From the NCBI GenBank assembly GCA_016182875.1, contig JACPFQ010000010.1, positions 1,268-65,267 on the forward strand: 64,000 bases of DNA, written 5' to 3'. The translations under genes were made by a program, and so were the position numbers. Below, one piece after another: positions 2,672-39,815 of the stretch (positions are counted from its first letter, which is position 1; each line of letters opens with the position of its first letter). Below the pieces are notes generated by a model. It saw only the letters and a list, made by a program, of their open reading frames with translations. It was not told where the DNA came from and ran no database searches. This DNA is from Candidatus Doudnabacteria bacterium. GTDB lineage: Bacteria; Patescibacteriota; Doudnabacteria; UBA920; O2-02-FULL-48-8.

Positions 2672-2698
2672 AGTTCTAAAGTTTCTATATTATACCAT

Positions 2699-2810
2699 AA
2701 GCGAGGCATAGTTGCAAAACTAGCTTGCGCAGCGCGACGGCGCGAGCACGCAGGCCGCAAAATCAGCAGATTTTGACGGCCGGTAGTTTTGCAATCTGTG
2801 CCGAGCGACT
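2699..2810. repeat. 115-nt structured inverted-repeat element, copy A (between map and htrA)
   Basis: Terminal inverted repeats gcatagttgcaaaactagc / ccggtagttttgcaatctgtgcc enclose two internal hairpins; two other copies at 16015 and 17219. Confidence 0.7.
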
Positions 2811-14305: not shown

Positions 14306-14758
14306 CTAGATTCCTTCGACTAATCCTTCAATTTTTTCACCGGTTTTCAGGGTCACGACCGCTTTTTTCCAATCAGAGGTTTTGCCGAACTTTCTGCCCA
14401 TGCGGCGCATCTTACCCTTGGTGTTAATGACGTTGACCGCGGTGACGTGAACGTCAAATGTTTTTTCAACAGCCTTTTTCACGTCAATTTTATTCGCTTT
14501 GGGATTAACTTTAAACACATACCGGCCAACTGTCGAAAGCGCGTTGGTTTTTTCGGAAAGGTGGACTGAACTCAGAACTCTATAAGCCCGTCCCGTATCA
14601 TCTTTGAGCACTACTTCCTTTTTGGGTGTTTCTTGCTGCGGCTCTTTGACCATATCCCCGCCTTCGCTCACGCTTCGGCGGGCAGGCAAAACATTTTCTT
14701 GGACCCTTTTATTCCCTTTATCCCCCTTATTCCCTTTTATCTTATCCAATAATCCCAT
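14306..14758 (-). CDS. rplW: ribosomal protein L23 (Lys/Gly-rich N-terminal extension; true start may be an internal Met)
   Basis: The C-terminal 95 aa are L23-like. Confidence 0.8.
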   Translation of the reverse strand: MGLLDKIKGNKGDKGNKRVQENVLPARRSVSEGGDMVKEPQQETPKKEVVLKDDTGRAYRVLSSVHLSEKTNALSTVGRYVFKVNPKANKIDVKKAVEKTFDVHVTAVNVINTKGKMRRMGRKFGKTSDWKKAVVTLKTGEKIEGLVEGI

Positions 14759-15401: not shown

Positions 15402-16004
15402 TTATTGCCTGATTACGTCGGGGTGATCGGTAAAAACCCCATCGACTCCTAATCTTTTCACGTCTTCGAACAGGTTTTGTTCGTTTATCACAAAGGTATA
15501 AATCTGGAAACCCAATCTTCGCATCCACCACATACGCGCCGCAGTAAGAAGCGAGTAATGCGGATGGATTGAGTAAATTCTTAAATAATGGGAAAGTAGT
15601 ATCAAGAAGCTGAAGTAACGATTCATTTTTTGATTGATCGCCAGGCCCAGCTTGATATTTCTGTCCAAACTTCTGATCTTTCGCAAAATTTTAAGTTTAA
15701 ACGACGAGATCAGGACTTCAGACGGAAAATCCTTAATCATTTCGAGAAGCTGTTTTTCAAATCCGCTTTCTTTGATTTCCAAATGCAGTGCGACATTTAC
15801 TGCTTTCAAAACTTCTGTCAGCCGAGCTGAGCGCGGGTAAATTTTTTCCGGGTCCGCGTCGTGAGCGACTACGATTACACCATTTCTGTCTAGCCGCAAA
15901 TCCATTTCCACCGCATCCACTCCCAGCTCTATTGCTTTTTTGAAAGAACCAATCGTGTTCTCCGGTTCGAGCCCGGCCGCCCCTCTGTGCCCTATGATCA
16001 GCAT
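15402..16004 (-). CDS. glycerophosphodiester phosphodiesterase (GDPD) inserted between rplC and rplD
   Basis: Contains MLIIGHRGAAG...ENT...EMDLRL...HD, matching the GDPD signature. Confidence 0.75.
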   Translation of the reverse strand: MLIIGHRGAAGLEPENTIGSFKKAIELGVDAVEMDLRLDRNGVIVVAHDADPEKIYPRSARLTEVLKAVNVALHLEIKESGFEKQLLEMIKDFPSEVLISSFKLKILRKIRSLDRNIKLGLAINQKMNRYFSFLILLSHYLRIYSIHPHYSLLTAARMWWMRRLGFQIYTFVINEQNLFEDVKRLGVDGVFTDHPDVIRQ

Positions 16005-16014
16005 ACGGATTCGG

Positions 16015-16147
16015 AACGCGAGGGCTGGCGGCAAAAACTAGCTTTCGCAGACCGGCTCCATCCGGCCGAGAACGCAGGTCGCAAAATTTGCGGCTTCCAT
16101 GCCCAAATTTTGACGACCGGTAGTTTTTGCCCGACAGCCCGAGCGCT
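16015..16147. repeat. 115-nt structured inverted-repeat element, copy B (between GDPD and rplC)
   Basis: The two terminal repeats co-vary (gcggcaaaaactag / ctagtttttgcccg); the internal hairpins are conserved. Confidence 0.7.
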
Positions 16148-17138: not shown

Positions 17139-17218
17139 CTCAAATTAATTAAAGTTTTTTAAGTACAGCTTGCTTATTTTACATAAAAGAGCCACTCAGG
17201 TCAACCCTAGGATTCTAG

Positions 17219-17348
17219 AAGCGAGGGATAGTTGCAAAACTAGCCTTCGCAGGCCGGCTCATCCGGCCGAGAACGCAGGCTGCAAAATTTGGCTTATCAA
17301 TGCCGAATTTTGACAGCCGGTAGTTTTGCAATCTATCCCGAGCGACTG
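17219..17348. repeat. 115-nt structured inverted-repeat element, copy C (S10 leader, between rpsJ and tuf)
   Basis: gggatagttgcaaaactag ... ctagttttgcaatctatccc, with internal ggccggctcatccggcc and gcaaaattt/aattttgac hairpins. Confidence 0.7.
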
Positions 17349-17404
17349 ACCCGTCGCCCAAAGAGTATCAAAAGGACTAGCCTTGGCTAGGCTAGCCCTT
17401 TATT

Positions 17405-18592: not shown

Positions 18593-18840
18593 AAATTCTT
18601 GGTTTATCCTTGCTGAAATATGGTAGAAACTAGCTCGCTACGCTCGCGAAATTGATAGAAATTGGCCGTAGCTAATCTCTACTAGTTTCGCAGCCGAAGG
18701 CTGCATATTTCTATATATTTCTAAACAGCTTAATTAATAGCCCTAAGATTATAATGCTTTCGCTCCCTTTTGTAAAGGGCCTGATAATCTTAATACTTTT
18801 TCACGAAACGGTCAAATGGCTATGATTACTTTCAATTTAT

Positions 18841-18900
18841 CCTTCTCCCCTTGCGGGAGAAGGTGGCCGCAGGCCGGATGAGGGGTAGCAAAGTACCCGC
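18841..18900. repeat. GC-rich hairpin element (ccttctcccc-ttgc-gggagaagg + ggccgcaggccggatgagggg)
   Basis: Shares modules with the elements at 56996-57146, 24069-24196 and 59664-59745. Confidence 0.6.
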
Positions 18901-18937
18901 ATTAAGGCTATGATTTGAATACCAGAAGGAGGAAACA

Positions 18938-19150
18938 GTGGCGAAAACACGCCGGAAAGCTCCTCAGAAGCAAGAAAAGCCAGACTTTGGCAGGCTGTTC
19001 CTCCAGGTGTTTTTGTTTGTTCGGGGCGTCAGCAGCGACAACCCAAAAACCCAAAAGCGCTGTGGCAGACTGCTCAACGAACTCGCCGAAAAACGCAAAC
19101 CCAGGAAACGGAAGCTAGCGAGGAGACGTCATGGCAAGGCCGAGAACTAA
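18938..19150 (+). CDS. small highly basic protein (island ORF)
   Basis: GTG start 7 nt after AGGAGG. K/R-rich 70 aa in GC-rich DNA unlike the flanking sequence. Confidence 0.4.
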   Translation: MAKTRRKAPQKQEKPDFGRLFLQVFLFVRGVSSDNPKTQKRCGRLLNELAEKRKPRKRKLARRRHGKAEN

Positions 19151-19397
19151 CTGTTCTTCGGAAGCGGACGTGATGAGGCTCGTTAACTACGTGCTCAATC
19201 ACGACGGTCCCGACGAGCACCGCGAGACGCAGAAACACCTCAAGGTATGCGGTGAGTGTCGGGAAATGCTTACACTCATGCGCAAAGCCAAACGGCGCAT
19301 GACTAACCCCAACCCCGGGATTTCCATGGCTCTCCGCGCTTCAAAGGCAGAGAAAGCCAGAAAAGCTTTCAGAATCGTGCACAACGAAACGCGCTAA
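19131..19397 (+). CDS. small Cys/His zinc-finger protein, anti-sigma-factor (ZAS)-like HxxxCxxC motif
   Basis: RBS GAGGAG; contains HLKVCGECREML. Confidence 0.4.
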   Translation: MARPRTNCSSEADVMRLVNYVLNHDGPDEHRETQKHLKVCGECREMLTLMRKAKRRMTNPNPGISMALRASKAEKARKAFRIVHNETR

Positions 19398-19410
19398 CGA
19401 GGAGGCGCTT

Positions 19411-19575
19411 ATGGCAATTGCGTTGTGGGTTCTCAGTGCGGTCGCGCTGGTTCTCCTCGCTGGGGGTTTGATCTTGCGTCATTGGGCGGGGAAACCAATC
19501 AGCACCTTTGAACCGCGACCCATGGGGCGAGAATATTCCCCATACGACCCTGACGATCCTGAGTACATCGGGTAG
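19411..19575 (+). CDS. small predicted membrane protein (54 aa)
   Basis: RBS GAGGAGG 6 nt upstream of ATG; one hydrophobic helix. Not in the ORF track because it is under 60 aa. Confidence 0.35.
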   Translation: MAIALWVLSAVALVLLAGGLILRHWAGKPISTFEPRPMGREYSPYDPDDPEYIG

Positions 19576-19596
19576 AATCTTTAGCGGGAGGTGGCT

Positions 19597-19797
19597 ATGC
19601 CCGAGAAGTGGCGTGTGGTAGAAGTCGACCCAAATTGCGGCGCGGAAATCACGGGCCGAGACGCAGACAGTGAAGAAGACGCGCTCATGGCTGCCGGACT
19701 CATGAAAGGCTACCGGCTCATCAGGCGCCCGGACGGAAGCTGGTTTCAGTACGACCCGCCTGAGCCGAAGCCCGTGGACAGAGTTGATTGGTTCTAA
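19597..19797 (+). CDS. small hypothetical protein (island ORF)
   Basis: RBS GGGAGG followed by ATG; 66 aa. Confidence 0.4.
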   Translation: MPEKWRVVEVDPNCGAEITGRDADSEEDALMAAGLMKGYRLIRRPDGSWFQYDPPEPKPVDRVDWF

Positions 19798-19808
19798 AGG
19801 AGGGTGCC

Positions 19809-19997
19809 ATGACTTACGATCCGCAGGAGCTCCAGCGGCGGCACAACGAGACACAATGGCCTGGCGGCCATGATCCCGAAATTCGCGAATTCACGACGCA
19901 GCCGCGCCAACTGGAAAAAGCTGTTCGTGAAAAGCTCTCGCCCCGCCCGACCGGAAAGCGTGTTGAGCCCGGCGAACCAACCCATGGCGGAATCTAA
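19809..19997 (+). CDS. small hypothetical protein (island ORF)
   Basis: RBS AAGGAGG followed by ATG; 62 aa. Confidence 0.4.
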   Translation: MTYDPQELQRRHNETQWPGGHDPEIREFTTQPRQLEKAVREKLSPRPTGKRVEPGEPTHGGI

Positions 19998-20001
19998 AGC
20001 A

Positions 20002-20169
20002 ATGCTCACGAGTCCTGTTCCACTGGACCCCGGCAGACACGACGTGCCCATTCTGCCGCCGCCATTTCCAATAGATCCTAACTACCAGCCCGACAAACCT
20101 GTCTTGCCGGTAGTAGAAGAGGAGGAGCCCGAAGAGGACGGCGAAGATCCGGCCAGCGACGACGATTAG
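20002..20169 (+). CDS. small acidic Pro-rich protein (island ORF; start uncertain, alternative 19984)
   Basis: In-frame continuation; C-terminus EEEEPEEDGEDPASDDD. Confidence 0.3.
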   Translation: MLTSPVPLDPGRHDVPILPPPFPIDPNYQPDKPVLPVVEEEEPEEDGEDPASDDD

Positions 20170-20274
20170 TCAACCTGCGCTAACCGTCTTTTTTTATTTA
20201 AAGAGCCTTGTTCGCCCCAACGGCTCAAGTACTTGAGGCGTTAAAATACTTGCTTACGGGCCAGTAAGCAAGTC

Positions 20275-20302
20275 TACTGCAATACGTTCCCGTATTGCAG
20301 TA
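20275..20302. repeat. perfect palindrome tactgcaatacg-ttcc-cgtattgcagta (family member)
   Basis: Other copies at 30477-30504, 57758-57785 and 60105-60133; two further hairpins lie at 20224-20273. Confidence 0.7.
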
Positions 20303-20350
20303 TTAGGCAGCTATTCTAGTCAAAAAAAATAATCCGCTTAAGCCCAAAGC

Positions 20351-20749
20351 CTAAGCGGTGTGACCGACCTCGAGGTCGGCTATTGAGACAGGCCGAGTGC
20401 CCGGCTCTGCCCTTCCTCCAGCCTGCCACCGAACAACCGCCTTAAATGGCCGCGGAGGACGTCCGCCGTGTCTTCGCATGTCGCGAACTTCGTATCCGCT
20501 CAGAGCGTAGAGGTAAAGCACAGTGCCCGGATTGCCATACGCGCGTGAGCGGACCGTTTTGCCTACGTACTGCTCTTGAGCGGACTTGAGAATCGCGATA
20601 CGCTCGCTTTCGATAGTGCCGCCGGTGCCGTTGCCCATTTCAATGTAGCTAATCAGGCTTGCTGCTACCCGCAAAGTGGGCGGCACTTCGATACCACGCT
20701 CCCTGAGAAAATCGACCTGCCTGCCGATCGGAGGGGTCGGACGCTTCAT
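20351..20749 (-). CDS. hypothetical protein (132 aa), GC-rich
   Basis: Start MKRPTPP preceded by AGGGGGAAATGAG. Confidence 0.4.
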   Translation of the reverse strand: MKRPTPPIGRQVDFLRERGIEVPPTLRVAASLISYIEMGNGTGGTIESERIAILKSAQEQYVGKTVRSRAYGNPGTVLYLYALSGYEVRDMRRHGGRPPRPFKAVVRWQAGGRAEPGTRPVSIADLEVGHTA

Positions 20750-20790
20750 CTCATTTCCCCCTTTCATCCATAATGAAACATAATAGCACG

Positions 20791-20816
20791 AAAAGCAGGC
20801 TTTCGCCTGCTTTTCT
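20791..20816 (-). terminator. rho-independent terminator downstream of fusA
   Basis: Hairpin aagcaggc-tttc-gcctgctt with a T-run on the minus strand. Confidence 0.55.
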
Positions 20817-20917
20817 GTTAAGCGCGACGGGTGGCACGTTTGTTGGGGACCCCGACAGCGCGCAACGACAGTGAGCACTGGCGGGGTAACAAACGTGACA
20901 GGACCCGTCGCTCAAAG

Positions 20918-24068: not shown

Positions 24069-24196
24069 CTCCCCTCTCCTTCCAGGAGAGAAATTCTCTA
24101 CCTCACCAGCTGCCGAGAGCTGGTCGGGGGAGAGGTGGCTTAAGTTTGCCATGCCCACCCCACCCTTTAATCCCTCCCCTGGAAGGGGAGGGAAAT
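24069..24196. repeat. GC-rich multi-hairpin element upstream of rpsL
   Basis: ctctcc-ttcc-aggagag; cagctgccgagagctg; ccctcccc-tggaa-ggggaggg. Confidence 0.55.
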
Positions 24197-24293
24197 TATA
24201 ATTTGTTAAAAGTCTGAGCAAATAAAAACGGTCATAAGACCGCGTGCAACTCTACGCAGGTTTCGAAACAAAGAATAACAATTTCCGCCAGCC

Positions 24294-25616: not shown

Positions 25617-25832
25617 ATGCGAAAATGCAATATCTGCGGCAAAGGCTATATGAATACGGTGAGACGCTCACACTCGATGCAGGCCAACAAAGTTCGGCTC
25701 TATCCGAATTTGCAATGGCTCAAACTCCCACACGGACAGCGAATCAAGGCCTGCACCAAGTGCATGAAAACCTATCACCGGAAGATGGTGGTCGCCGCAC
25801 CCGCCTTCGCTGAAGCTTCGGCGGGCAAGTAA
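25617..25832 (+). CDS. rpmB: ribosomal protein L28
   Basis: Contains RKCNICGK...RRSHSMQANKVRLYPNLQ, which is L28-like. Confidence 0.65.
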   Translation: MRKCNICGKGYMNTVRRSHSMQANKVRLYPNLQWLKLPHGQRIKACTKCMKTYHRKMVVAAPAFAEASAGK

Positions 25833-25868
25833 AAATCTCTAGGAATACTAGAGATTTTTTGTTTGTTT
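25833..25868 (+). terminator. rho-independent terminator after rpmB
   Basis: Hairpin aaatctctag-gaata-ctagagattt followed by tttttgtttgttt. Confidence 0.65.
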
Positions 25869-30476: not shown

Positions 30477-30504
30477 TACTGCAATACGTTCCCGTATTGC
30501 AGTA
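30477..30504. repeat. palindrome tactgcaatacg-ttcc-cgtattgcagta
   Basis: Identical to the 20275 copy and preceded by aatcttga, as at 57750. Confidence 0.7.
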
Positions 30505-30517
30505 CTACTCAAATTCC

Positions 30518-31792
30518 CTATTTAATTTTCCTCACCAGTCTCGACTCGTCTTTAGGCTTTTTATTCAAGACGAGGCGGACAATCCCCTTGTTGGCGTCGA
30601 CTTCGACCAAGTCTCCGTCCTTGAAAATCTTGGTCGCGAACTTAGTGCCGATGACGCAGGGTTTTTTCAGCTCTCTGGAAACAATTGCCGCATGGCAAAG
30701 CATGCCGCCTTCGTCCGTGACAATCGCGGAGGCTTTTTTAATTGCCGGTAACCATTGCGGGCGGGTCATGGAGGTAACAATAATTGATTTGTTCTTTACT
30801 GCTTTTATATTTTTAGCAGTCATCAAGATAACAACCTTTCCACTAGCTTTACCCGCTTGGGCAGTCGTCCCAGACAAAGTGTTGATTTTTGAAGAAATAT
30901 TTCCTTGCGGCCCTAACTCTTTCGCAGCGATTTTCTGTGCCTCTCTCCCGGAATACAGTAACCAGGTTTGATTCTTTAAAACTAAAACGTAAAAGCTTCT
31001 TCGCTTTTTTACTTCAACTTGGAGTAACTTCCAACTCCTCTTTACGCTTTGCAAGATTTCTTCAGGCCGATACCAGACCAGGTCTTTTTTTGGAATTTCG
31101 TTTTGTCTCACGATTTTTTCTAAAAATTTTTGGAATTTCGGAAAAGAATATTTAGTAGTTACTAATTCAGCAACTTCGTGCAAATAAAACCGCCATTCAA
31201 AATATTTTATTAATTCTTTAAACGCGGTCGAAGGCTTGAGCTTGTTTAACAATCTTAGCTTTTTCTCTACTAGCGCCTTATCCGGATGAAAAAACTCCTC
31301 AAGGTTGCTTGCGTTTATTACAGGATAAACAAGGGTAGCAAATAGCTCGTCACTTGTTCCATATCCAAATTTCAAAAGTTCTTTTTTCAACAGCAGCTCG
31401 AGCTCTGGCTGAGGTATGCAGTACGCCACTATCGCCCTTGCCTGGATATAAAGATTAAAATAATTTTTCAAAGATTCTATAATTTGATCTGGCTGATCTG
31501 GCGGTAACTGCTCGATGTGGTCAGTCAGCCTGATCAGTTGAGTTAATATACTGCAAGAACTCTTAAATAATCTTTTATATACTTTTGTTTTATAATCATT
31601 CTGGATAATTCGTAATTTTTTTGGGATTTCATTTGGTCCGAAATACATAACCGGCAGTTCGTGCTCCGCAACTATTAAAATCTCACCAATGCAATATTTG
31701 GTTCCAGATAAATTTGTGGCATACCCAAGAGTTTTGAGGTAACGCTCAAGCAAAGTTGCCTCCCGAGTAATCATTTTTTTCCAGTAGGTCAT
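30518..31792 (-). CDS. paralog 6: novel helical N-domain + C-terminal PEP-utilising phosphohistidine (swivel) domain
   Basis: C-terminus [28 protein letters not shown]...[11 protein letters not shown]. Confidence 0.8.
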   Translation of the reverse strand: MTYWKKMITREATLLERYLKTLGYATNLSGTKYCIGEILIVAEHELPVMYFGPNEIPKKLRIIQNDYKTKVYKRLFKSSCSILTQLIRLTDHIEQLPPDQPDQIIESLKNYFNLYIQARAIVAYCIPQPELELLLKKELLKFGYGTSDELFATLVYPVINASNLEEFFHPDKALVEKKLRLLNKLKPSTAFKELIKYFEWRFYLHEVAELVTTKYSFPKFQKFLEKIVRQNEIPKKDLVWYRPEEILQSVKRSWKLLQVEVKKRRSFYVLVLKNQTWLLYSGREAQKIAAKELGPQGNISSKINTLSGTTAQAGKASGKVVILMTAKNIKAVKNKSIIVTSMTRPQWLPAIKKASAIVTDEGGMLCHAAIVSRELKKPCVIGTKFATKIFKDGDLVEVDANKGIVRLVLNKKPKDESRLVRKIK

Positions 31793-32112
31793 AGTAACAA
31801 CTCTGCCGCTGTCCGAGCCTGTTTCTCTCCTTCACCAGTTAATTCCGCTTCCGCTCCCTCGCCTAGGGCCTGACCGTGCCTGAAAAAATAAGCATTAACT
31901 TCCCGGCCTTTAGGTTCTTCTTCTCTCGCCTCCTTAAATCTCGGCTCTCCCTCTCCCTCTCCAAATTTTCTTTCATTCATATATTAACCTTTCTTAATTA
32001 TTTTATCTTCCTCACAACCCCTCGATTCGCCCCTGTACCAGTCCGCCTCAGGCGAACAGTACAGGGCTTCGCTCGCTCTGTGCACTTTAGTACGGTCGTG
32101 TATTAAAGCCTG

Positions 32113-33375
32113 TTAATTTGCTCGTTTAAGTAATTTTACTATTCCCCGCTGCGCATCCACCTCGACCAAATCCCCTGTCTTAAATACTTGTGTCCCTATT
32201 TTGGTCCCTATAATACATGGGATTTTCATTTCCCGGGATACTATCGCTGCATGGGAAGTAATTCCACCTTCATCTGTCACAATGGCTTTAACTTTTTTCA
32301 AATATGGCACGGCTGCGGGCTGGGTTTCTGGAGTAATTAAGATCTCGCCTGATTTGATTCCTGAAAAATTATAGGCATCAGCAACGCGGGCTCGGCCAGT
32401 AACCCTACCTTTATTTGCAATTAACCCCGCAATTTTGGAAGTTCTACCGTTTAAATCCTGGATTGATTTTTTAAAGTCTTGAAGTTTGGGTCCAACAATA
32501 ATCTTAACTCCTTGAGACGCAAACATTAAACCGTAATCTTTCTGTCGCAATTTCAGAATTCTGCGATTAAACTTTCCGGAAATTAACTCTTCTGGGGTCA
32601 ATTGCCTGGCTGCTTCGTAACTTAATCCCTGAGCTTTTTTCATTAGCAAAGGTTTGAAATAATAGAAAAATTCACTAATTTTATACAGCCGCCAGTCACG
32701 GAAATGAATATATTCCTGCGCCATTGCAACTAATCGATCAATGCGAGGATTAATCTTTGTTTTTTGTGATTGCACGGCCTTAATTTGATTTTTCTTTGCT
32801 GATTTCCAATCAGCCTTGAATGTTTCGTAAGTCAACGGAGTTATGTCCATAACGTAAGAATTTATCCATGCATAATTTATGAATACCTTTTTAAATACTT
32901 CTGGGTTTGGCTTCTTAACTGCGCGCAAAGCTTGTTGGTATTTTTGGCGCATTAAGGGTTTCTTGCCAAGAGGAACTTTCTCAATTACCGGTTTGAGCTC
33001 TTCATTAATAACCAAATCAATCATAATCGGCAAATAGGTAGCTTGAAATGCCAAAGCCGCTTGATCGAATATCTGTTTGAGGTTTTGCTTGGTAGCATGT
33101 TTGGTATGCTTTGTGATGACGATAAGCTTTTCTGAATCACCTTTCATCTTTTTCAAGGCCCGATATGGCCAATCCGTCCCAAGTTTTTTTTTGATAGCTT
33201 GTAAAAGTAATTTAAGCTCTCGTTCTTCCACCCATAAACTACCCGAATGTCTAGCCCAATGTTTGAGATTGGGCAGACCAAAATAATCGCCGAATTCGCG
33301 TCGTAATGATTCCATAACCCAATAAACATACAAAATCGGATGATTACCGCGAGTAAAAAATCTTATCCATTTCAT
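32113..33375 (-). CDS. paralog 5: variable N-domain + PEP-utilising phosphohistidine domain
   Basis: C-terminus [28 protein letters not shown]...[11 protein letters not shown]. Confidence 0.8.
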   Translation of the reverse strand: MKWIRFFTRGNHPILYVYWVMESLRREFGDYFGLPNLKHWARHSGSLWVEERELKLLLQAIKKKLGTDWPYRALKKMKGDSEKLIVITKHTKHATKQNLKQIFDQAALAFQATYLPIMIDLVINEELKPVIEKVPLGKKPLMRQKYQQALRAVKKPNPEVFKKVFINYAWINSYVMDITPLTYETFKADWKSAKKNQIKAVQSQKTKINPRIDRLVAMAQEYIHFRDWRLYKISEFFYYFKPLLMKKAQGLSYEAARQLTPEELISGKFNRRILKLRQKDYGLMFASQGVKIIVGPKLQDFKKSIQDLNGRTSKIAGLIANKGRVTGRARVADAYNFSGIKSGEILITPETQPAAVPYLKKVKAIVTDEGGITSHAAIVSREMKIPCIIGTKIGTQVFKTGDLVEVDAQRGIVKLLKRAN

Positions 33376-33626
33376 TTTATTTTCCTCACAATCCCATTAT
33401 TCGCATCGACTTCCACCAAATCGCCGTCTTTTAATCTTTTATATTTACTATTCCTGTAAATCAAGCGGACTTTCGCGGTATCCTGTGTAATCCACTTTTG
33501 TTCTTCTTTCGTCTTGTAATACTTCTTGTTTGCGTAAAAATGACCGAAAATTTTAGCCTGTCCTTGTTTTCGATCAAAGTATATTTCCGCCAACTTATTA
33601 TTAACCATTGCAAAACACCACGGCAT
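33372..33626 (-). pseudogene. remnant of a further paralog (only the extreme C-terminal swivel-domain motif retained)
   Basis: Ends ...[20 protein letters not shown], identical in style to the paralog C-termini, and lacks the GG..HAAI core. Confidence 0.5.
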
Positions 33627-33638
33627 AGATATTTTTTA

Positions 33639-34055
33639 TTATTTTGTTAGATACTTATTCAAAAAATCACCTGGCAAAAGAATGGGAAACGACACGGCTC
33701 CCATCACCCTGGGCTGGATAAAATGCTTACGGTCTAAAGTTATAAAAAAATCGCAATTGGCTTTCATGGCCGCAGCAAGAATTACTGCATCAAATACATT
33801 GATTAATTTTTTAGCTTTTAAGATTGTTTTTTTATCTGGCTGGATTAAAACCGCATGCACAGAATCAAACAAAGCTAAAAAACTTTGAACTTTAACGGGA
33901 TATTTCTCGTTCAAATTCCTGGTAACTTCCTCGAAAACATCTGGCGAGCTGATTACCGGAAGCCTCTTATTTATGACTTGGCGAATAATTTCGGCTGACG
34001 CGCCTTGTTCAGAAAGACTCGCCGCTATCCAAACACTACTGTCTAAGAAAATCAT
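33639..34055 (-). CDS. vapC: PIN-domain toxin (VapC-like)
   Basis: Start MIFLDSSVWIAA plus conserved acidic residues; 138 aa, immediately downstream of the RHH gene. Confidence 0.7.
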   Translation of the reverse strand: MIFLDSSVWIAASLSEQGASAEIIRQVINKRLPVISSPDVFEEVTRNLNEKYPVKVQSFLALFDSVHAVLIQPDKKTILKAKKLINVFDAVILAAAMKANCDFFITLDRKHFIQPRVMGAVSFPILLPGDFLNKYLTK

Positions 34056-34057
34056 CT

Positions 34058-34330
34058 TTATTTAAAAAGATAAGGATAGCGTTCTTTTACCAATTCCGAT
34101 CGAATTCGCCTATAATCTTTTTCAATTTTTTTCCATAACCGGGCATCTTCTTTTTCGAGCTGAAGTAATTTTTTCTTTGGGATTTTTTTGCTTGCTTCTT
34201 CCAAATAACGGCGCAGTGCCGTGCGTAAAAGTTCTGAACGGGTCATATTCTGCTTTTGGGCTATTTTTTCCGATTCCCGCAGCATTTGAGGCGGTAGGGA
34301 AATAGTGACTAACGACGTATTACGCTTCAT
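34058..34330 (-). CDS. vapB: ribbon-helix-helix antitoxin (CopG/VapB-like)
   Basis: 90 aa with an RHH-like N-terminus (VTISLPPQMLRESEKIAQ); 3-nt spacing to the PIN gene. Confidence 0.6.
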   Translation of the reverse strand: MKRNTSLVTISLPPQMLRESEKIAQKQNMTRSELLRTALRRYLEEASKKIPKKKLLQLEKEDARLWKKIEKDYRRIRSELVKERYPYLFK

Positions 34331-34424
34331 ATAATTTATATGTTAATACTAAGTATTAACATTGTACTTAGCTAATTTATAGCTGTCAATATGCCTTTTC
34401 TATAACCTATTATATCTAAAATTA

Positions 34425-35873
34425 TCATCTGCCAACTTTTCTGACAATCCCCTTACTAGCATCGACCTCGACCAAATCCCCATCTTTGAGGACTTTGGTT
34501 GCTATTTTGGTGCCGACGATGCAAGGAACGCCCAGCTCGCGGGAAACTACCGCCGCATGAGACATTAGTCCGCCGACATCAGTGACAATTGCTTTAGCCT
34601 TGCGCATAGCAACTATATAGTCGGGTGAGGTCATGGGGGCGACCAAGATTTCTCCGGGTTTCATGTATTGGGCAAATTTCGGTGAATGCAGAATCCTAGT
34701 CCGCCCGCTAACCTTCTGTCCTGAATTAAAAGCCACTATTCCTTGGACTTCTTTGCCAGCATTTATTTCTTTCTTCGATTCCAAAGCCTTGAGGAAATCT
34801 TTTACTTTTTTGCCGTAAAAAAATCTGTAATCCTTGGGTGTTACCAAAATCATCGTCGAATTTTTCCTGTGCTTAAGTACGCGAGGACTGACCTTGGCCC
34901 CGGTTTGGAATAACCTTAACCACTCGGCGCAATCATAATACATCAACTGGTCAATGCTTAGGCCAAAAACCGGGCTGGCGAATTTATTAAACCTATCAAT
35001 GACATTGTGGGCCCGCCAGCTGGTGGCCTTGCGGTGGTCCTGCCACCAGATAGAAAAAGAAATATTACGCGCAGCGGCGACCAAGCTTTTTGGAACGTGA
35101 TATTTTTTTATAACTTGTCTTTTTCTTTTGGCGATCTCGCGGCGCGATGCCAAAATGTTTTGTATTTTTTCCTTCAGCTGCTGTTTGGAAAGCCTGCTCA
35201 CTTGCCTTAAAAAATATGTGTCGGGAAGGATTTGCGCTGTATAATAGCTATTTTCCACCCAATACCATTTGGAGGCGTAAACTTTCAATTTGGCGCGCAA
35301 GCCCTTTTTATTTTTAGCCGCTAAGGCAGTTTGGAGCAATTCCAGTTCGCTTTGTTGATGGAAGCTTGGTTTTGGAGAGGCCATAAGTATGCCAACTGTT
35401 TCTTCCATCTCGCTTGCTGGAACAAGGCCGCGAAGTTTCCTGCTTAAATATTCAGGTGAGGCAAAATTAGCCAGTTCTTGAACTAAAGCATAAACCCAAA
35501 GTTGAATCAAATAACGGTAAAATTTTTCAACGTAAGGCCTAAGCTGCTCAATATTTTTAAAGTTAGTGACATGCGATATCTCTCTTTTAAATTTTCTAAG
35601 GTTAAGCACATTGTCCCAGTACTTTTTCCACAAAATTTTCATTTTCCCAGTGGGAATAATCCAGCGATTCAGCGCGACCTCACCCCTTTTTTGCATCTCT
35701 GCTTTCTCCCAATAATACGCCATCTTGTCGTGGCCATAAATCCCGACATAAGTGGGCCAGGGCGCTTTGAATTTCATGCCGCTTGTGGCATTGGCCACTA
35801 TCCAAAACGACGGATACAAAAGCCTCCCATCTATTGGGCCCCACTGGTCAATTTCTTTTTTATGGTTAAGCAT
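34425..35873 (-). CDS. paralog 4: variable N-domain + PEP-utilising phosphohistidine domain
   Basis: C-terminus AIVTDVGGLMSHAAVVSRELGVPCIVGT...[11 protein letters not shown]. Confidence 0.8.
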   Translation of the reverse strand: MLNHKKEIDQWGPIDGRLLYPSFWIVANATSGMKFKAPWPTYVGIYGHDKMAYYWEKAEMQKRGEVALNRWIIPTGKMKILWKKYWDNVLNLRKFKREISHVTNFKNIEQLRPYVEKFYRYLIQLWVYALVQELANFASPEYLSRKLRGLVPASEMEETVGILMASPKPSFHQQSELELLQTALAAKNKKGLRAKLKVYASKWYWVENSYYTAQILPDTYFLRQVSRLSKQQLKEKIQNILASRREIAKRKRQVIKKYHVPKSLVAAARNISFSIWWQDHRKATSWRAHNVIDRFNKFASPVFGLSIDQLMYYDCAEWLRLFQTGAKVSPRVLKHRKNSTMILVTPKDYRFFYGKKVKDFLKALESKKEINAGKEVQGIVAFNSGQKVSGRTRILHSPKFAQYMKPGEILVAPMTSPDYIVAMRKAKAIVTDVGGLMSHAAVVSRELGVPCIVGTKIATKVLKDGDLVEVDASKGIVRKVGR

Positions 35874-35876
35874 GTG

Positions 35877-36743
35877 TTATTTACCCAGTCTAGCTTTTAA
35901 CCATTCCGTAATTTGTTGAGAAAATTGCGGCCATTCTGACTCTAGCATCAGCAAGTGCCCTGCTTTCATTTCGAGATAATCTCCTCTTAAAAACCTCGCT
36001 AGTTCCTGGCACTGCTGCGGGGAAACACGGTTGTCATCCGAAGCCCCAACAACTAAAATAGGACATTTTATTTTTTCCGGATTGATTGAAGGAGGTTTGC
36101 TATAAGCTTCAAAACGAGCCTGGTGTGACTCAAATCCCAACATTGGCTTGTATTTTTCATCATAGGCTGCTTCAAAGTCAGACGGAACCCGATCGCCAAA
36201 CCAGCTTAAAAAACTCGCTTTATCTCTTTTTATCATATCTCCCCTTGCAATTAATTCTTGAACTTTTGCTTCTTCTTCGGGAGTTGGCGCTTTCATCGGA
36301 AACTGAGATGGGAGTCCGGGTGTAAGCAAAATCAATGCGGCTGGCTTTTGGTCAGCGGCTTGCTCCATTGCAGTCAAGCCGCCGGCGCTACGGCCTACCA
36401 ATACTTGTTGATTGTAATTTAAGCCTTGCTGTGTTAAATCTTCACGCGCCCTGCGGATATCTTCGTTAAAATCCACCATGCTTCTACCTGCGAATTCTGC
36501 ATTAGGAAGTTCGCCCAGCCGCCCTTTAAGATTAACTGACATTGAATCAAAGCCATTGCGCCCGAAACTTTCCAAAACGGGCAGGCCACTTTTTGCAGTA
36601 AGACCTGATCCGGGAATGAAAATGGCAGTCTCCAGATAAAGTTTGGGCTCTGCTGGCAAAAATTCTGCTCTTAATCCGCCTACAATGATTTCTCTCGTAG
36701 GAATTTTGGGAGCATCAAATCGCCCGGAATCTTCTATGCTCAT
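35877..36743 (-). CDS. alpha/beta-fold hydrolase
   Basis: GRSAGG nucleophile elbow (GxSxG) with downstream D/H; 288 aa. Confidence 0.65.
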   Translation of the reverse strand: MSIEDSGRFDAPKIPTREIIVGGLRAEFLPAEPKLYLETAIFIPGSGLTAKSGLPVLESFGRNGFDSMSVNLKGRLGELPNAEFAGRSMVDFNEDIRRAREDLTQQGLNYNQQVLVGRSAGGLTAMEQAADQKPAALILLTPGLPSQFPMKAPTPEEEAKVQELIARGDMIKRDKASFLSWFGDRVPSDFEAAYDEKYKPMLGFESHQARFEAYSKPPSINPEKIKCPILVVGASDDNRVSPQQCQELARFLRGDYLEMKAGHLLMLESEWPQFSQQITEWLKARLGK

Positions 36744-37735
36744 TCTTTCTTTTCAAACCTACTCTTTGCTACTTCAGCTAACTCTCTAACTTTTTGCCAG
36801 TCCAAATAAACTCTTTTGCCTTTAAATAATTTGGCCCGCTCAGGGTCTGTAAACTCAAACTCCGCTTTGGTGTCTTTGTCAAAATCATCTAAGCTTCGCG
36901 GATCGCCCATTCTGGTGTCGCGGGAAAGTTTGATGCGAAACGCTGTGGCCTGTTTGGTGAACCCGCCGATTTCGTCCACGTCATCAAAGCCGACTTTCCG
37001 CTCCCCGGTTTGCGGATCTTCTACGACCAAAGCCTGTTTATACAAAGATTCCGCAAACAGTCCGCTGCCGACTATGGGAATCGCTTTTGACTCACCGCCC
37101 TTCACGCCTCTTCTGGAAAGCTCAATTGCGTGCATCAACTCATTGGCTTCGTTTTCGGCCAAAGGACGGGCAATATCTTCATTGGCTAGCGCTTCTCGCA
37201 ATCCTACTATTTGCGCCTTTTCCCTATTTGCGGCTCGAAATTCCGCGTCAGATTTGAATCTTTCCTGGTCCTCCGGCGACAACTCTAAAACCAAACGATT
37301 GAGCTTAGTGTTGATCAAATCTTTGTATTGCTTCAACACCGGATTTAGGCCAGCGCCAGCATAATCAACGCCTTTGCCGCGCCTTGCTCCTTTTACTTTG
37401 CCGGTTTTGCCTTTGACCGGTGAGGCGTCTTCTCGCTCACCGAACTTTTCACTCCCGGCCAATATATCTTCTCCGGTTTCACCATGTCTGGGCTCATCTC
37501 CTCCCCGAGGATGAACCAAAGTCACTTCTTCGGGATAATTAGCCGCCCCATACTCTTTTGCTCGGGACTTGCCCACAGGCGTTAAGTCCGTAGGGTCATC
37601 AAACTTTTGCCGGCTGCCATCGGCAAAGGTGATATCCATCGGCCCGCCGAACCTACTGCCGTGGCGCGTAAGGTCGATGTAGGTCGTCGCGATAAACTGT
37701 TTCTCCTCCTCAAGATTGCGCATTTCTTCATTCAT
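36740..37735 (-). CDS. hypothetical protein, possible histidine-phosphatase-like (RHG motif near N-terminus), charged/low-complexity middle
   Basis: LTRHGSRFGGP motif; otherwise unrecognised. Confidence 0.35.
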   Translation of the reverse strand: MNEEMRNLEEEKQFIATTYIDLTRHGSRFGGPMDITFADGSRQKFDDPTDLTPVGKSRAKEYGAANYPEEVTLVHPRGGDEPRHGETGEDILAGSEKFGEREDASPVKGKTGKVKGARRGKGVDYAGAGLNPVLKQYKDLINTKLNRLVLELSPEDQERFKSDAEFRAANREKAQIVGLREALANEDIARPLAENEANELMHAIELSRRGVKGGESKAIPIVGSGLFAESLYKQALVVEDPQTGERKVGFDDVDEIGGFTKQATAFRIKLSRDTRMGDPRSLDDFDKDTKAEFEFTDPERAKLFKGKRVYLDWQKVRELAEVAKSRFEKKE

Positions 37736-38322
37736 AGTTTTTGTAACTCCTTTTTTAATTGTTCAACATTTTTATAAATTAGAATTTTCATTGCCAATTG
37801 CTCGGCACCCTCGATTCTGTCCGGACGATCATCGATATACAAAGCTTCGCTTCCGGAAACGCCGGCTTGTTGGAGTGCATATTCGTAAATTTTCACATCT
37901 GGCTTGCGGATATGCAGATAACTGGATACAGCTTTAATAGTAAAAATTTCACCCCAATGATACTGCTGCCAAAAATAATCAAACCATTCTTTGGGATTAT
38001 TGGAAATAACGCCCAGGGTGAAGCGGCTCTTGAGAACCGCCAAGAATCCCAGCAGTTCTCTGTTCGGGGAAAAATTTTTAAGAATCAATTTCTTTAAATC
38101 CTCGACGTCCAGCGCTTGCTTGAAGTCTTCCGCAGTTTTTTGAAAGTACTCCTGCTCGCTAATATTGCCCAAAGTGAAGTCCTTCCACCACACTCCATCA
38201 TGAGCTGAAGCGTAAAGCAAGCCAGGTTTAATCCCATGAGCCGCCTCGTATTCCTTAATCCCGGCTGTAAAACCTTCTCTCACTAAAACATTACCGGAAT
38301 CAAAAAAAATTGCCTTGATCAT
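37732..38322 (-). CDS. HAD-superfamily hydrolase (subfamily IA-like)
   Basis: Motif I IFFDSGNVL and motif IV YIDDRPD. Confidence 0.65.
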   Translation of the reverse strand: MIKAIFFDSGNVLVREGFTAGIKEYEAAHGIKPGLLYASAHDGVWWKDFTLGNISEQEYFQKTAEDFKQALDVEDLKKLILKNFSPNRELLGFLAVLKSRFTLGVISNNPKEWFDYFWQQYHWGEIFTIKAVSSYLHIRKPDVKIYEYALQQAGVSGSEALYIDDRPDRIEGAEQLAMKILIYKNVEQLKKELQKL

Positions 38323-39815
38323 TTTGCTCTTTCCAGAATCCGGACGATTCCTTTTTGCGCATCCACTTCCAGCAAGTCATCGTCGTGGATAATCCGGGTT
38401 CCATTTTGGGTGGCGATGACGCACGGAACTCCCAATTCGCGGGAGACAATCGCGGCATGCGAAGACAAGCCTCCCTGGTCCGCGACAATTGCGACCGCTT
38501 TTTCCATGGCCGGCACAAAATCCGGAGTGGTGAACTGCGCCACCAGGATGTCGCCCCGCTTGACCTTGCCTATTTCATGTTTGTCCAGGCAGACCCTTGC
38601 TCGACCCCGGATCATGCCGCCCAAACACGCCATCCGTCCGTGAATCTCTTCGATTTGCTCAACTTTGACAAAATACTTTTTTTCTAATTTTTTAATTTCG
38701 GCAGGATCAGTAATCAACTTGGTTTCGGCATTCCGCACTACCATGGCGTAATCTTTAAATCTCCTTTGCATCTCAGCGCTATTGGGCAGCGGCTTGCCCC
38801 GGAGTGCGCCAAACATTTCCGGAGTGGAGACTTCCATAATCCAGTCAGGGTTGAATTTGGCTCGTCGGGCGATCTCGGCGTACATGAAGCTTGCGCCATA
38901 ATCGGCGTTGAAAAACGCTTCTACGCGGCGGTTGCGGACGTAGGAATGGAGTTTTGCCTGGCCAATGATCTTTTGGAAATCTTTTTTCGGCCTAATTTTC
39001 TCAATGGCGTCTTTGTAATCGTCCCCGACTTTCTTCTCGGAAGCGAAGTAGATTAGGTCATCAATCGACTGGCCTGCGGAAATTTGCCTTTTTATCTCTT
39101 TGAGCCTGTCAATTATGTCCTTGTAAGAGTAGGGCTTGCTCGTGGCTAGGCCGCGGTTGATGTAGGCAAATTTATCCAGATGCTTTTGAATTTTTTGCTT
39201 AAACTTCGACGGCAAGCTGTTTAAATCAGCTTTGGCTTTGAAAAGTTCTTTGGCCAACAGCGTCAGCTTCCACCGTTCTTCGGCCACGTCGGTCATTTCT
39301 TTGGGATCGGTAAAGACCAATACATAATGGCGAAAATTTGGATTATCGCCTTTGATGCAATCAAGCAATTTTTCCTCAATTGCTTTTTCAAAATATTCAT
39401 CCAACGGGTATTGGGCATACCAAGGGCAGGCCAACTCTCGATACTGCTCCAGCAAATCTTTCAAAACGCCTGCCATGTGTCGGTTGGTTTTGCTCTGCCA
39501 ATCTGTCTTTTTGAGCTCAAAACCCCGATTGTAAAGCTTCTCCGACTTTTTCAACTCGCGCACGCAGTATCTTTCAAACCAGCCGTCATTTTTCTTGGGG
39601 TGCCCGGTTATTTCCGCTTCAAAGGGATTATATTCCTCCGCCGGCCAGTAGATCATGTGGTGCAGGTAAGCTCTGTTGGCCAAAACCGTTCTGATTTGAG
39701 CCTTCGCCGCGTTTTCCGGATTGAACGAAGAGTTAATCATGAAGCGCAAAAAGATCGGAAGCTTGCCCGACGGCTTGATCCTCCATTTGCCCGAATACAT
39801 TACTGCCCCGGCCAT
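38319..39815 (-). CDS. paralog 3: variable N-domain + PEP-utilising phosphohistidine domain
   Basis: C-terminus [28 protein letters not shown]...DDLLEVDAQKG. Confidence 0.8.
   Translation of the reverse strand: MAGAVMYSGKWRIKPSGKLPIFLRFMINSSFNPENAAKAQIRTVLANRAYLHHMIYWPAEEYNPFEAEITGHPKKNDGWFERYCVRELKKSEKLYNRGFELKKTDWQSKTNRHMAGVLKDLLEQYRELACPWYAQYPLDEYFEKAIEEKLLDCIKGDNPNFRHYVLVFTDPKEMTDVAEERWKLTLLAKELFKAKADLNSLPSKFKQKIQKHLDKFAYINRGLATSKPYSYKDIIDRLKEIKRQISAGQSIDDLIYFASEKKVGDDYKDAIEKIRPKKDFQKIIGQAKLHSYVRNRRVEAFFNADYGASFMYAEIARRAKFNPDWIMEVSTPEMFGALRGKPLPNSAEMQRRFKDYAMVVRNAETKLITDPAEIKKLEKKYFVKVEQIEEIHGRMACLGGMIRGRARVCLDKHEIGKVKRGDILVAQFTTPDFVPAMEKAVAIVADQGGLSSHAAIVSRELGVPCVIATQNGTRIIHDDDLLEVDAQKGIVRILERAK

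What the first reader, a model, noticed from the sequence alone, without database searches (positions are those of the whole stretch)
17219..17348. Novel ~115-nt three-helix structured element repeated in ribosomal-protein operon spacers, with compensatory base changes in its closing stem
Copies lie at 2699-2810 (map|htrA), 16015-16147 (GDPD|rplC) and 17219-17348 (S10 leader, rpsJ|tuf), all in the same orientation and all on polycistronic r-protein transcripts.

Each copy has three parts:
(i) a ~20-bp terminal stem;
(ii) a GC hairpin (ccgg-ctcat-ccgg in B and C, cgcg-acgg-cgcg in A);
(iii) a gcaaaat(t)...aattttgac hairpin.

In copy B both halves of the terminal stem changed together (ttgcaaaactag→gcggcaaaaactag and ctagttttgcaa→ctagtttttgcccg), so pairing is preserved. 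That is evidence of selection for structure, pointing to an RNA (processing site, attenuator or protein-binding leader) rather than neutral MITE decay. The conserved flanks are aagcgagg...ccgagcgact.
Basis: seen in the sequence. Interest (0 to 1): 0.75.

Follow-up and report, generated by a model that had tools for sequence, protein, structure and literature searches.

The report
Structured mobile-type repeat behind stop codons
A 110-130 bp repeat that folds into a three-armed hairpin is scattered through genomes of Doudnabacteria (tiny, uncultured CPR bacteria), usually wedged directly behind a gene's stop codon; it behaves like a REP/MITE-type insertion element with an unusually well conserved fold, not like a regulator of ribosomal-protein genes.

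Summary
The three copies exist as described and fold into a three-way junction (z about -7.7). With 14 more copies from other Doudnabacteria contigs, the fold is strongly supported: 96% of cells paired, 23 of 46 pairs changed on both sides, 0 of 500 shuffles as good.

The ribosomal-leader reading fails on four counts:
- All genes here are on the minus strand, so the element as written is antisense to them.
- That antisense form folds better in 15 of 16 copies (13 G:T cells against 2 A:C).
- Other copies follow map, fusA, a PBP-like gene, trxB-like, ruvC-like and galT-like genes.
- The tuf|rpsJ copy lies after the tuf terminator and before the conserved rpsJ promoter.

The same junctions (tuf|rpsJ, rplC|GDPD, map|htrA) are empty in relatives or hold a different subfamily with the same ends. 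In 10 of 17 copies one fixed end lies 1-3 nt after the upstream stop codon. No target-site duplication, transposase or Rfam match was found.

Best reading: a new REP/REPIN- or MITE-like structured repeat family, gained and lost by insertion. It is probably recognised as a folded single strand, and is passively co-transcribed at some sites. The mobilising enzyme and mechanism are unknown.

The parts
17219..17345 (+). Copy C, long form, 127 nt, given on the strand that folds best. It lies between the tuf terminator and the rpsJ promoter.
   Evidence: (134.8 bits)
16016..16146 (+). Copy B, long form, 131 nt. It fills the rplC|GDPD spacer: the rplC stop codon TGA ends 2 nt before the GCUCGG end, and the GDPD ATG lies 11 nt beyond the other end.
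   Evidence: (109 bits)
2699..2808 (+). Copy A, short form, 110 nt. The map stop codon TAG ends 2 nt before the GCUCGG end.
   Evidence: (115 bits)
17221..17242 (+). Copy C, 5' arm of closing stem P1: a GC clamp, a tandem GA, a 7-8 bp variable helix, then the conserved TTGCAAAACTA.
17246..17273 (+). Copy C, hairpin P2 (GCCGG-CTCAT-CCGGC) on a short lower stem with a conserved GCA/GA internal loop.
17278..17318 (+). Copy C, hairpin P3 (GGCTGCAAAAT...ATTTTGACAGCC) with a conserved bulged A. Its base pairs covary (CC/GG, TC/GA, CT/AG).
17321..17343 (+). Copy C, 3' arm of P1 (TAGTTTTGCAA-T-CTATCCC-GA-GC) with a bulged T.
17377..17397 (-). Intrinsic terminator of tuf (a 9-bp stem followed by UUUUGAU), lying between the tuf stop codon and copy C.
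   Evidence: Equivalent terminators occur in L041, L042 and L045.
17176..17204 (-). rpsJ promoter-like site TTGACC-17-TAAAAT, downstream of copy C on the gene strand.
   Evidence: It is conserved in L041, L042 and L045.
2689..2717 (-). Promoter-like site for the htrA-like gene. The extended -10 (TGGTATAAT) lies outside the element and is conserved in relatives. The -35-like TTGCAA is supplied by the P1 arm of copy A.

Best explanation
This is a family of short, non-coding, structured repeat elements of Candidatus Doudnabacteria (Patescibacteria/CPR). It behaves as an insertion element of the REP/REPIN or MITE kind.

Anatomy (shown): each unit is 102-154 bp. Its two ends pair over about 24 bp, so they are terminal inverted repeats. 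The pairing runs: a GC clamp, a tandem G.A/G.A loop, a 7-8 bp helix that differs between genomes, a bulged T, then a conserved 12-bp helix. The middle forms two hairpins around a conserved three-way junction.

Behaviour (shown): units are gained and lost at gene junctions. They sit in one orientation, with the GCUCGG end 1-3 nt after the stop codon of the upstream gene.

Inferred:
- The element is recognised and moved as a folded single strand, most simply ssDNA, by a host-encoded or element-family-encoded recombinase or transposase that has not been identified. This would resemble REP/RAYT, IS200/IS605 ends and integron attC sites. The inference rests on two facts: pairing is kept by compensatory changes, and wobble pairs accumulate on only one strand.
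- That strand is antisense to the neighbouring genes. In this window it is the leading-strand template.
- Where a unit lies inside an operon (copy B, rplC|GDPD) it must be co-transcribed. Its 24-bp stem then probably affects mRNA processing or stability as a side effect. Copy A appears to supply a -35-like hexamer to the htrA promoter.
For: Repeat family:
- There are 3 copies in 64 kb.
- At least 7 copies lie in about 58 kb sampled from MAG JACQJI01: L003, two in L004, L006, L009 and two in L041.
- Further copies occur in MFER01 and in four metagenome contigs.
- A Logan contig carrying rpsJ-rplC ends inside the element at both ends, as expected of a repeat-induced assembly break.

Gain and loss at orthologous junctions:
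- tuf|rpsJ and rplC|GDPD are empty in L042-44, with spacers of 94 and 3 nt. In L041 they hold a different subfamily with the same GCUCGG...CCUCGC ends.
- map|htrA is empty in four relatives.
- galT|tpi is empty in L051, holds a degenerate copy in L050 and a different hairpin in L048.
- A truncated older copy abuts the fusA stop codon, next to a full copy, in L042.

Position and orientation:
- In 10 of 17 copies the upstream stop codon ends 1-3 nt before GCUCGG. In one more, the ORF ends inside the element.
- 15 of 17 copies lie antisense to the upstream gene.

Structure under selection.

Strand specificity:
- There are 13 G:T cells against 2 A:C cells.
- The + form is more stable in 15 of 16 copies with RNA parameters, and in 3 of 3 window copies with DNA parameters.
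- Two unrelated hairpin families at the same junctions show no such bias.

Genome-specific ends: four JACQJI01 copies share the outer P1 helix GGGCTAGTCGC but carry different interiors. The short interior module occurs with four different P1 helices.

Not tied to transcription units: the element lies after the terminator in the window and in L041, but before the terminator in L042.

Precedent: REPs lie less than 20 bp from ORF 3' ends, sometimes provide the stop codon, show compensatory stem variants and show G:T pairs (PMC3733652).
Against: - No target-site duplication is seen.
- No autonomous partner, transposase or reverse transcriptase was found among the 28 window ORFs scanned against Pfam, or among the genes called in L041-L051.
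- Copy number looks modest. An exact 18-19 nt core pattern found only 5 true loci among 185,579 species genomes and 5 in the metagenome set.
- Conservation of junction nucleotides across two subfamilies, together with dense covariation, means long-term selection. That is more than most selfish MITEs show.
- No close relative (more than 95% nt identity) was available, so exact empty-site and filled-site junctions could not be compared.
- The folded strand lies on the leading-strand template. That is the opposite of the active orientation of IS200/IS605, although it is the orientation of attC bottom strands in sedentary integrons (PMC5371416).
Confidence: 0.6

Rival explanations
1. The element is a cis-acting RNA in the sense (mRNA) orientation. 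It would be a 3'-UTR or intercistronic module placed right after stop codons. Its long stem would act as an RNase III processing site, a barrier to 3' exonucleases, or a brake on terminating ribosomes, as reported for REP and Correia elements. The host would select for it.
For: The stop codon lies 1-3 nt from one end in 10 of 17 copies, and the next start codon lies 9-27 nt from the other end in 6. Copy B must be co-transcribed within the S10-type operon. The sense form also folds strongly, at -52 to -68 kcal/mol in the window copies. From my own knowledge: REPs within about 15 nt of a stop codon reduce expression through ribosome stalling (Liang, Rudd and Deutscher, Mol Cell 2015). That paper is not in the searchable library.
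Against: Wobble pairs and the tandem G.A motifs favour the opposite strand. In the sense RNA those positions become A.C and tandem U.C mismatches. Two copies lie behind intrinsic terminators and ahead of the next promoter, outside any obvious transcript. The element is absent from the same junctions in relatives that have the same gene order. One copy (L005) is inverted relative to its neighbours.
Confidence: 0.2
2. The element is an independent small RNA gene, or an antisense RNA, transcribed from the + strand convergently with the upstream gene. The three-way junction and G.A motifs would bind a protein.
For: The + form is the strand under structural selection. The conserved purine-rich internal loops (tandem GA; GCA/GA) are typical RNA-protein motifs. 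For copy C, a bidirectional terminator follows on the + strand.
Against: No conserved promoter lies upstream of the + form in 17 copies. In copies A and B a + strand transcript would run antisense into map or rplC with no terminator. There is no Rfam match on either strand. Multicopy presence-absence behaviour, a truncated copy and mosaic modules are unusual for an RNA gene.
Confidence: 0.1
3. One reading: a leader, attenuator or r-protein binding site that regulates ribosomal-protein operons.
For: All three window copies lie within the str-S10-spc gene cluster.
Against: Most copies elsewhere flank non-ribosomal genes. Copy C lies upstream of the rpsJ promoter. The element is absent from the same spacers in relatives. 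Its orientation is antisense. No r-protein leader family matches it.
Confidence: 0.02

Closest known systems
REP / BIME / REPIN elements mobilised by RAYT (TnpA_REP) transposases
   Same: Both are multicopy intergenic palindromes placed within a few nt of ORF 3' ends, and both sometimes supply the stop codon. Both have subfamilies with compensatory stem changes and G:T pairs. Both are thought to act as folded single strands. Subfamily 1 has GTAG, and subfamily 2 has CGTC, at the same junction position; these are the two tags of the REP superfamilies (PMC3733652).
   Different: The unit here is 102-154 bp with a three-way junction, not a 20-40 bp hairpin or a simple dimer of two hairpins. The GTAG/CGTC tag lies 3' of hairpin P3 and is partly paired, instead of being an unpaired 5' head. 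No RAYT gene was seen. The host phylum is CPR.
Bacterial MITEs that are co-transcribed (Correia/NEMIS of Neisseria, ERIC/IRU of enterobacteria, RUP/BOX of streptococci)
   Same: Similar size (about 100-150 bp), long terminal inverted repeats that form a stem, insertion polymorphism between strains, and location in transcribed spacers where they can create promoters or RNase III sites (own knowledge). Copy A supplies a -35-like hexamer.
   Different: There is no target-site duplication. One fixed end sits at a stop codon. Wobble pairs are strand-specific, and covariation extends into the internal hairpins. No parent IS with the same ends was found.
Integron attC sites
   Same: Both are 57-141 bp imperfect palindromes lying directly 3' of an ORF. 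In both the recombinogenic folded strand is the bottom strand (antisense to the ORF), structure is conserved more than sequence, there are bulged bases, and the tip is variable and sometimes branched. In sedentary arrays the folded attC strand lies on the leading-strand template (PMC5371416), as it does here.
   Different: There are no RYYYAAC/GTTRRRY boxes at the ends, no unpaired-central-spacer geometry, no cassette array and no intI. The flanking genes are conserved housekeeping genes in conserved order.
IS200/IS605-derived palindrome-associated elements (PATEs)
   Same: No target-site duplication, strand- and orientation-specific insertion, hairpins recognised in ssDNA, and a short sequence (here T-R-A) required on one flank only (own knowledge).
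   Different: PATEs lack long terminal inverted repeats. The flank here is only a degenerate trinucleotide and usually coincides with a real stop codon. The better-folding strand has the opposite polarity to that expected for a top strand. No Y1 transposase or TnpB was seen.
Ribosomal-protein leaders (e.g. the L4-binding S10 leader)
   Same: Located near rpsJ and rplC/rplD, and structured.
   Different: It is not in the 5' UTR, it is not conserved at orthologous positions, it also occurs next to unrelated genes, and it lies on the wrong strand.

Membership tests
Ribosomal-protein operon leader / attenuator | Lies in the transcribed 5' UTR or intercistronic region of the regulated r-protein operon, on the mRNA strand | tested here: not met
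   Copy C lies between the tuf terminator and the rpsJ promoter. The structure-preserving strand is antisense.
Ribosomal-protein operon leader / attenuator | Conserved at the orthologous position in related genomes and restricted to r-protein genes | tested here: not met
   The spacers are empty in L042-44, L048-51. Copies follow fusA and PBP-like, trxB-like, ruvC-like and galT-like genes.
Any Rfam 15 family | Covariance-model score at or near the gathering threshold | tested here: not met
   At the gathering threshold the window yields only 3 tRNAs. Below E = 10 on either strand of copy C there are only chance hits of 10 and 22 bits.
MITE (cut-and-paste, IS-derived) | Terminal inverted repeats | tested here: met
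   The P1 arms pair over about 24 bp.
MITE (cut-and-paste, IS-derived) | Target-site duplication flanking each copy | tested here: not met
   No direct repeat flanks any of 14 copies. The exact ends are uncertain by 2-3 nt because no near-identical empty site was available.
MITE (cut-and-paste, IS-derived) | Multiple dispersed copies with presence/absence polymorphism | tested here: met
   empty sites
MITE (cut-and-paste, IS-derived) | A parent IS in the same genomes that has the same ends and encodes a transposase | tested here: inconclusive
   None was found in about 0.4 Mb of held sequence (gene tables). Whole genomes could not be scanned.
REP / REPIN | A 20-40 bp palindromic unit with an unpaired GTAG or CGTC head at its 5' end (REPIN: two such units inverted) | tested here: not met
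   GTAG (subfamily 1) and CGTC (subfamily 2) are present, but they lie 3' of hairpin P3 and are partly paired. The arms are not themselves hairpins (definition from PMC3733652).
REP / REPIN | Located close to ORF 3' ends, with compensatory stem subfamilies and G:T pairs | tested here: met
   compare PMC3733652
REP / REPIN | A single-copy RAYT gene in the same genome | not testable with these tools
   No whole-genome protein search by family is possible. None was found among the proteins examined.
Integron attC | R''/R' boxes (RYYYAAC ... GTTRRRY) at the ends, with L boxes and an unpaired central spacer | tested here: not met
   The ends are GCGAGG...CCGAGC. The only AAC/GTT lies in GCAAAAC/GTTTTGC in the inner stem and fails the R/Y pattern.
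Integron attC | Arrays of ORF-attC cassettes next to intI/attI | tested here: not met
   The neighbours are conserved housekeeping genes in conserved order. No integrase was seen.
IS200/IS605 PATE | Insertion 3' of a fixed tetra- or pentanucleotide, no TIR, no TSD, and a Y1 transposase in the genome | tested here: inconclusive
   There is no TSD, and a one-sided T-R-A flank occurs in 14 of 17 copies. But long TIRs are present, the flank is degenerate, and no Y1 gene was seen.
Hammerhead ribozyme | A three-way junction with the CUGANGA and GAAA cores and a UH cleavage site | tested here: not met
   The junction strands read CUUCGCAG / CGAGAACGCAG / CGG (subfamily 2: UUGUGAG / CGAACAAC). The essential G5 and A6 equivalents are absent. 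There is no Rfam hit.

The most novel reading that the evidence does not exclude
A previously undescribed class of strand-specific, three-way-junction DNA elements in CPR bacteria. They would home to the position immediately 3' of stop codons, without target duplication, and be moved as folded ssDNA by an unrecognised recombinase. This would combine attC-like or REP-like chemistry with a new site architecture. Alternatively, the same fold could be a new antisense RNA-protein module. Either way, reduced CPR genomes of about 1 Mb would be maintaining a selected, proliferating structured repeat.
Probability: 0.25. Interest if true: 0.8.

Novelty: new variant of a known kind. Interest (0 to 1): 0.55.

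Why it matters
CPR/Patescibacteria genomes are regarded as streamlined and poor in repeats. A conserved, structured, insertion-type repeat that slots in exactly behind stop codons, even inside the S10 ribosomal-protein operon, matters for four reasons:
1. It identifies a new family of bacterial interspersed elements in an unexplored phylum.
2. It offers a clean system for asking how REP-like elements choose ORF 3' ends.
3. It points to an unidentified structure-specific single-strand recombinase or binding protein.
4. It explains assembly breaks and variable spacer lengths in Doudnabacteria MAGs.

It also warns against reading every covarying structure next to r-protein genes as a regulatory leader.

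Tried and rejected
- Rfam: gathering scan of the whole window and an E <= 10 scan of copy C on both strands. Nothing relevant was found.
- Hammerhead-like core: P2 is flanked by ...AG/CGAG..., which resembles CUGAUGAG/CGAAAC, but the essential core nucleotides are missing.
- A MIRU-like small ORF bridging stop and start codons: copies B and L050 have an open frame across the element, but L004a, L004b and L006 have stops in all three frames.
- Target-site duplications: none.
- The apparent remnant 'ATGGTATAA' after copy A is not a displaced map C-terminus. It is the conserved extended -10 of the htrA promoter, also present 40 nt after the map stop in L051. The map stop in the window is at the natural position.
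- attC R/L boxes: absent.
- Search for a parent element, meaning paired ends 0.1-0.2 kb apart or half-sites elsewhere in the window: only the three copies were found.
- Transposase, reverse transcriptase or HUH genes in the window: none among 28 ORFs scanned.
- Phage and plasmid collections and IMG/VR: no match.
- Mutation bias as the cause of the strand asymmetry: two unrelated hairpin elements at the same junctions show no bias. Deamination of the exposed sense strand would also predict the opposite sign.
- A conserved promoter upstream of the + form: none.
- Literature searches for CPR MITEs, integrons or structured RNAs found nothing describing this element.

Full report
**Observation**

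A covariance model built later places them at 2699-2808, 16016-16146 and 17219-17345, all on the + strand, with scores of 115, 109 and 135 bits. A filter-free scan of the whole window finds no fourth copy.

Copy C folds into a closing stem of about 24 bp plus two hairpins. The minimum free energy is -73.3 kcal/mol, z = -7.75, with 0 of 200 shuffles as good.

But they, and almost every other gene in the window, are on the minus strand. The element as written is therefore antisense to the transcripts it was assigned to.

**Origin and relatives**

The S10 protein of the window is 100% identical to one from a Candidatus Doudnabacteria MAG.

I scanned the species-genome collection for an exact 19-base core pattern, and the metagenome collection for an 18-base version of it. 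Each scan gave five true copies, all in Doudnabacteria MAGs or unbinned contigs. The other hits were chance.

The covariance model then found more copies in the fetched loci:
- a second copy in L004;
- a copy after fusA in L042-44;
- with filters off, two copies of a second subfamily in L041;
- a degenerate copy in L050.

That makes 17 copies in all.

There is no match in Rfam 15 on either strand. There is also none in the phage, plasmid or IMG/VR collections.

**Structure**

On 12 distinct copies RNAalifold predicts the same three-way junction, with 19 of 42 pairs compensated.

With a hand-checked structure of 46 pairs:
- 96.1% of cells are standard pairs;
- 23 pairs show changes on both sides;
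- none of 500 column shuffles reaches any of the five measures;
- sliding the 3' partners by 1-3 columns drops pairing to 25-40%.

The covariation covers every helix:
- the outer closing stem;
- a 2-3 bp junction helix (G:C changes to A:U in L005 and L023);
- the lower stem of hairpin P2 (U:A changes to G:C);
- the P2 stem itself;
- the base of hairpin P3.

That is two G-C pairs around a symmetric tandem G.A loop. P2 carries a second conserved purine loop (GCA/GA). P1 has a bulged T and P3 a bulged A.

**Which strand folds**

In the paired columns there are 13 G:T or T:G cells against 2 A:C or C:A cells. By my count this is roughly 11 independent events against 2.

The + form is more stable than its complement in 15 of 16 copies with RNA parameters, by about 5 kcal/mol on average. 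It is also more stable in all three window copies with DNA parameters.

In the sense strand the conserved G.A loops would become tandem U.C mismatches.

Two unrelated long hairpins at the same gene junctions in relatives show no such bias. Deamination of the exposed sense strand would also predict the opposite sign. Mutation bias is therefore an unlikely cause.

GC skew is negative on the + strand throughout the window, and the genes are co-oriented on the minus strand. The folded form therefore lies on the leading-strand template here.

**Context**

The element is not specific to ribosomal genes. Copies follow map, rplC, tuf, fusA, a PBP-like gene, a thioredoxin-reductase-like gene, a RuvC-like gene, a GalT-like gene and membrane proteins.

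On the gene strand, the GCUCGG end lies 1-3 nt after the stop codon of the upstream ORF in 10 of 17 copies. In L020 the ORF runs 13 nt into the element and stops there. In six copies the next start codon is only 9-27 nt beyond the other end.

Four copies lie 30-61 nt downstream of the stop codon:
- Two of them (window copy C and L041) lie behind a canonical tuf terminator and ahead of an rpsJ promoter (TTGACC/A-17-TAAAAT). That promoter is conserved in relatives with and without the element. The 'S10 leader' copy is therefore outside the S10 transcript.
- In L042 the copy lies between fusA and its terminator, next to a truncated older copy that itself abuts the fusA stop codon.

A T-R-A triplet precedes the end even where it is not a gene's stop codon (L041a, L006, L005). 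This hints at a sequence preference, but the triplet is degenerate.

No target-site duplication is visible.

**Orthologous sites**

Gene order is conserved across Doudnabacteria, including the odd GDPD gene between rplC and rplD. The junctions differ as follows:

| Junction | State in relatives |
|---|---|
| tuf\|rpsJ and rplC\|GDPD | Empty in L042-44 (94-nt and 3-nt spacers). In L041 they carry a different subfamily with the same ends and junction logic but different stems, with CGTC where subfamily 1 has GTAG. |
| rplC\|GDPD | L045 has an unrelated 150-nt hairpin. |
| map\|htrA | Empty in four relatives. |
| galT\|tpi | Empty in L051, a degenerate copy in L050, another hairpin family in L048. 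|

A short-read contig carrying rpsJ-rplC ends inside the element on both sides.

Within MAG JACQJI01, four copies share one outer P1 helix but have different interiors. Across genomes, identical interior modules sit in different P1 helices. Ends that are genome-specific while interiors are shared is what one expects if the ends are the recognition sites of a genome-specific enzyme.

**Interpretation**

The evidence fits a REP/REPIN- or MITE-like interspersed element that is gained and lost by insertion. Its fold is under selection because one single strand is the substrate of whatever moves or binds it.

Published REP surveys describe the same habits: position within 20 bp of ORF 3' ends, occasional donation of the stop codon, compensatory stem subfamilies, G:T pairs, and GTAG or CGTC tags (PMC3733652).

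Integron attC sites offer a mechanistic parallel. They are folded bottom strands, antisense to the ORF and directly after it, and in stable arrays they lie on the leading-strand template (PMC5371416).

This element fails the defining tests of each of these families:
- it has no 20-40 bp REP unit with a 5' unpaired tag;
- it has no R/L boxes or cassette array;
- it has no target-site duplication;
- no parent IS was found.

No transposase was found in the sequence I could examine. I therefore file it as a new variant of the known kind 'structured interspersed repeat', with the mobilising mechanism inferred and not shown.

RNA-level consequences are likely but secondary:
- Copy B must be co-transcribed between rplC and GDPD, and its 24-bp stem is a plausible RNase III substrate.
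- Copy A supplies a -35-like TTGCAA, 17 nt upstream of the conserved extended -10 of the htrA-like gene.

**Limits**

- No close relative (more than 95% nt identity) was available, so the exact ends and any 1-3 bp duplication remain uncertain.
- Both large-collection DNA scans used an exact core pattern and so undercount diverged copies.
- Whole genomes could not be scanned, so copy number per genome and the presence of a partner enzyme are unknown.
- No expression data exist.

Noticed in passing
window 20275-20303, 30477-30504, 56794-56831, 57758-57785, 60105-60132, 62970-63007, 63379-63416: A second repeat family: a perfect 11-12 bp palindrome, TACTGCAATACG-N4-CGTATTGCAGTA, with seven copies. 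Several lie just 3' of minus-strand genes, so they look like terminators, but two fall inside long ORFs (56382-57932 and the LeuRS gene).
   Followed up: partly
window 14658-14691, 25801-25834, 52736-52769 (reverse complement): A 34-nt GC-rich repeat, CCGCCTTCGC..GCTTCGGCGGGCAGGCAAAA, in three places, at 88-91% complementarity between the copies. One lies inside an r-protein-cluster ORF and one lies next to tRNA-Leu.
   Followed up: no
window 24070-24200 (minus strand): An unrelated ~125-nt element with the same architecture: a 25-bp closing stem plus two hairpins (-70.9 kcal/mol, z = -4.9). It lies in the 751-nt spacer between the M50 peptidase gene and rpsL, and here the gene-sense strand folds better.
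   Followed up: partly
window 50870-51015 and 49020-49165 (minus strand): A ~110-nt rod-like hairpin (z = -6.7), and a structured stretch next to tRNA-Pro (z = -4.1). Neither matches Rfam at gathering score.
   Followed up: no
window 15402-16007; L041 11179-11790; L042 10992-11660; L045 11233-11835: A glycerophosphodiester phosphodiesterase (GDPD) gene sits between rplC and rplD, inside the S10-type ribosomal operon, in all four Doudnabacteria lineages examined.
   Followed up: partly
L045 11083-11232; L048 10167-10272: Relatives carry unrelated long hairpin insertions at the very junctions (rplC|GDPD, galT|tpi) where this family inserts. Positions just after stop codons therefore look like general hot spots for structured insertions in these genomes.
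   Followed up: partly
L020 260-386: A RuvC-like ORF reads 13 nt into the element and uses a TAG inside the P1 stem as its stop codon.
   Followed up: partly
L042 7831-7867: The truncated 5' part of an older copy (GCTCGGCACAAGCCCGCAAAAAAACTACCGGCT) overlaps the fusA stop codon and is followed directly by a full copy of the other subfamily. This indicates nested or serial insertion.
   Followed up: yes
window 30518-43997: An array of seven paralogous genes that share a PEP-utilizers mobile domain, next to a PPDK_N gene. Their shared 3' ends were reported as direct-repeat families D1-D3.
   Followed up: partly
window 58365-61532: The leucyl-tRNA synthetase gene carries an inserted serine-hydrolase/alpha-beta-hydrolase domain (aa 298-453).
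   Followed up: no
window 18593-20917: The fusA-tuf spacer is expanded to 2.3 kb, against about 0.7-0.9 kb in relatives. It holds two ORFs (161 and 175 aa) with no Pfam match. In L042-44 the same spacer holds an element copy.
   Followed up: no
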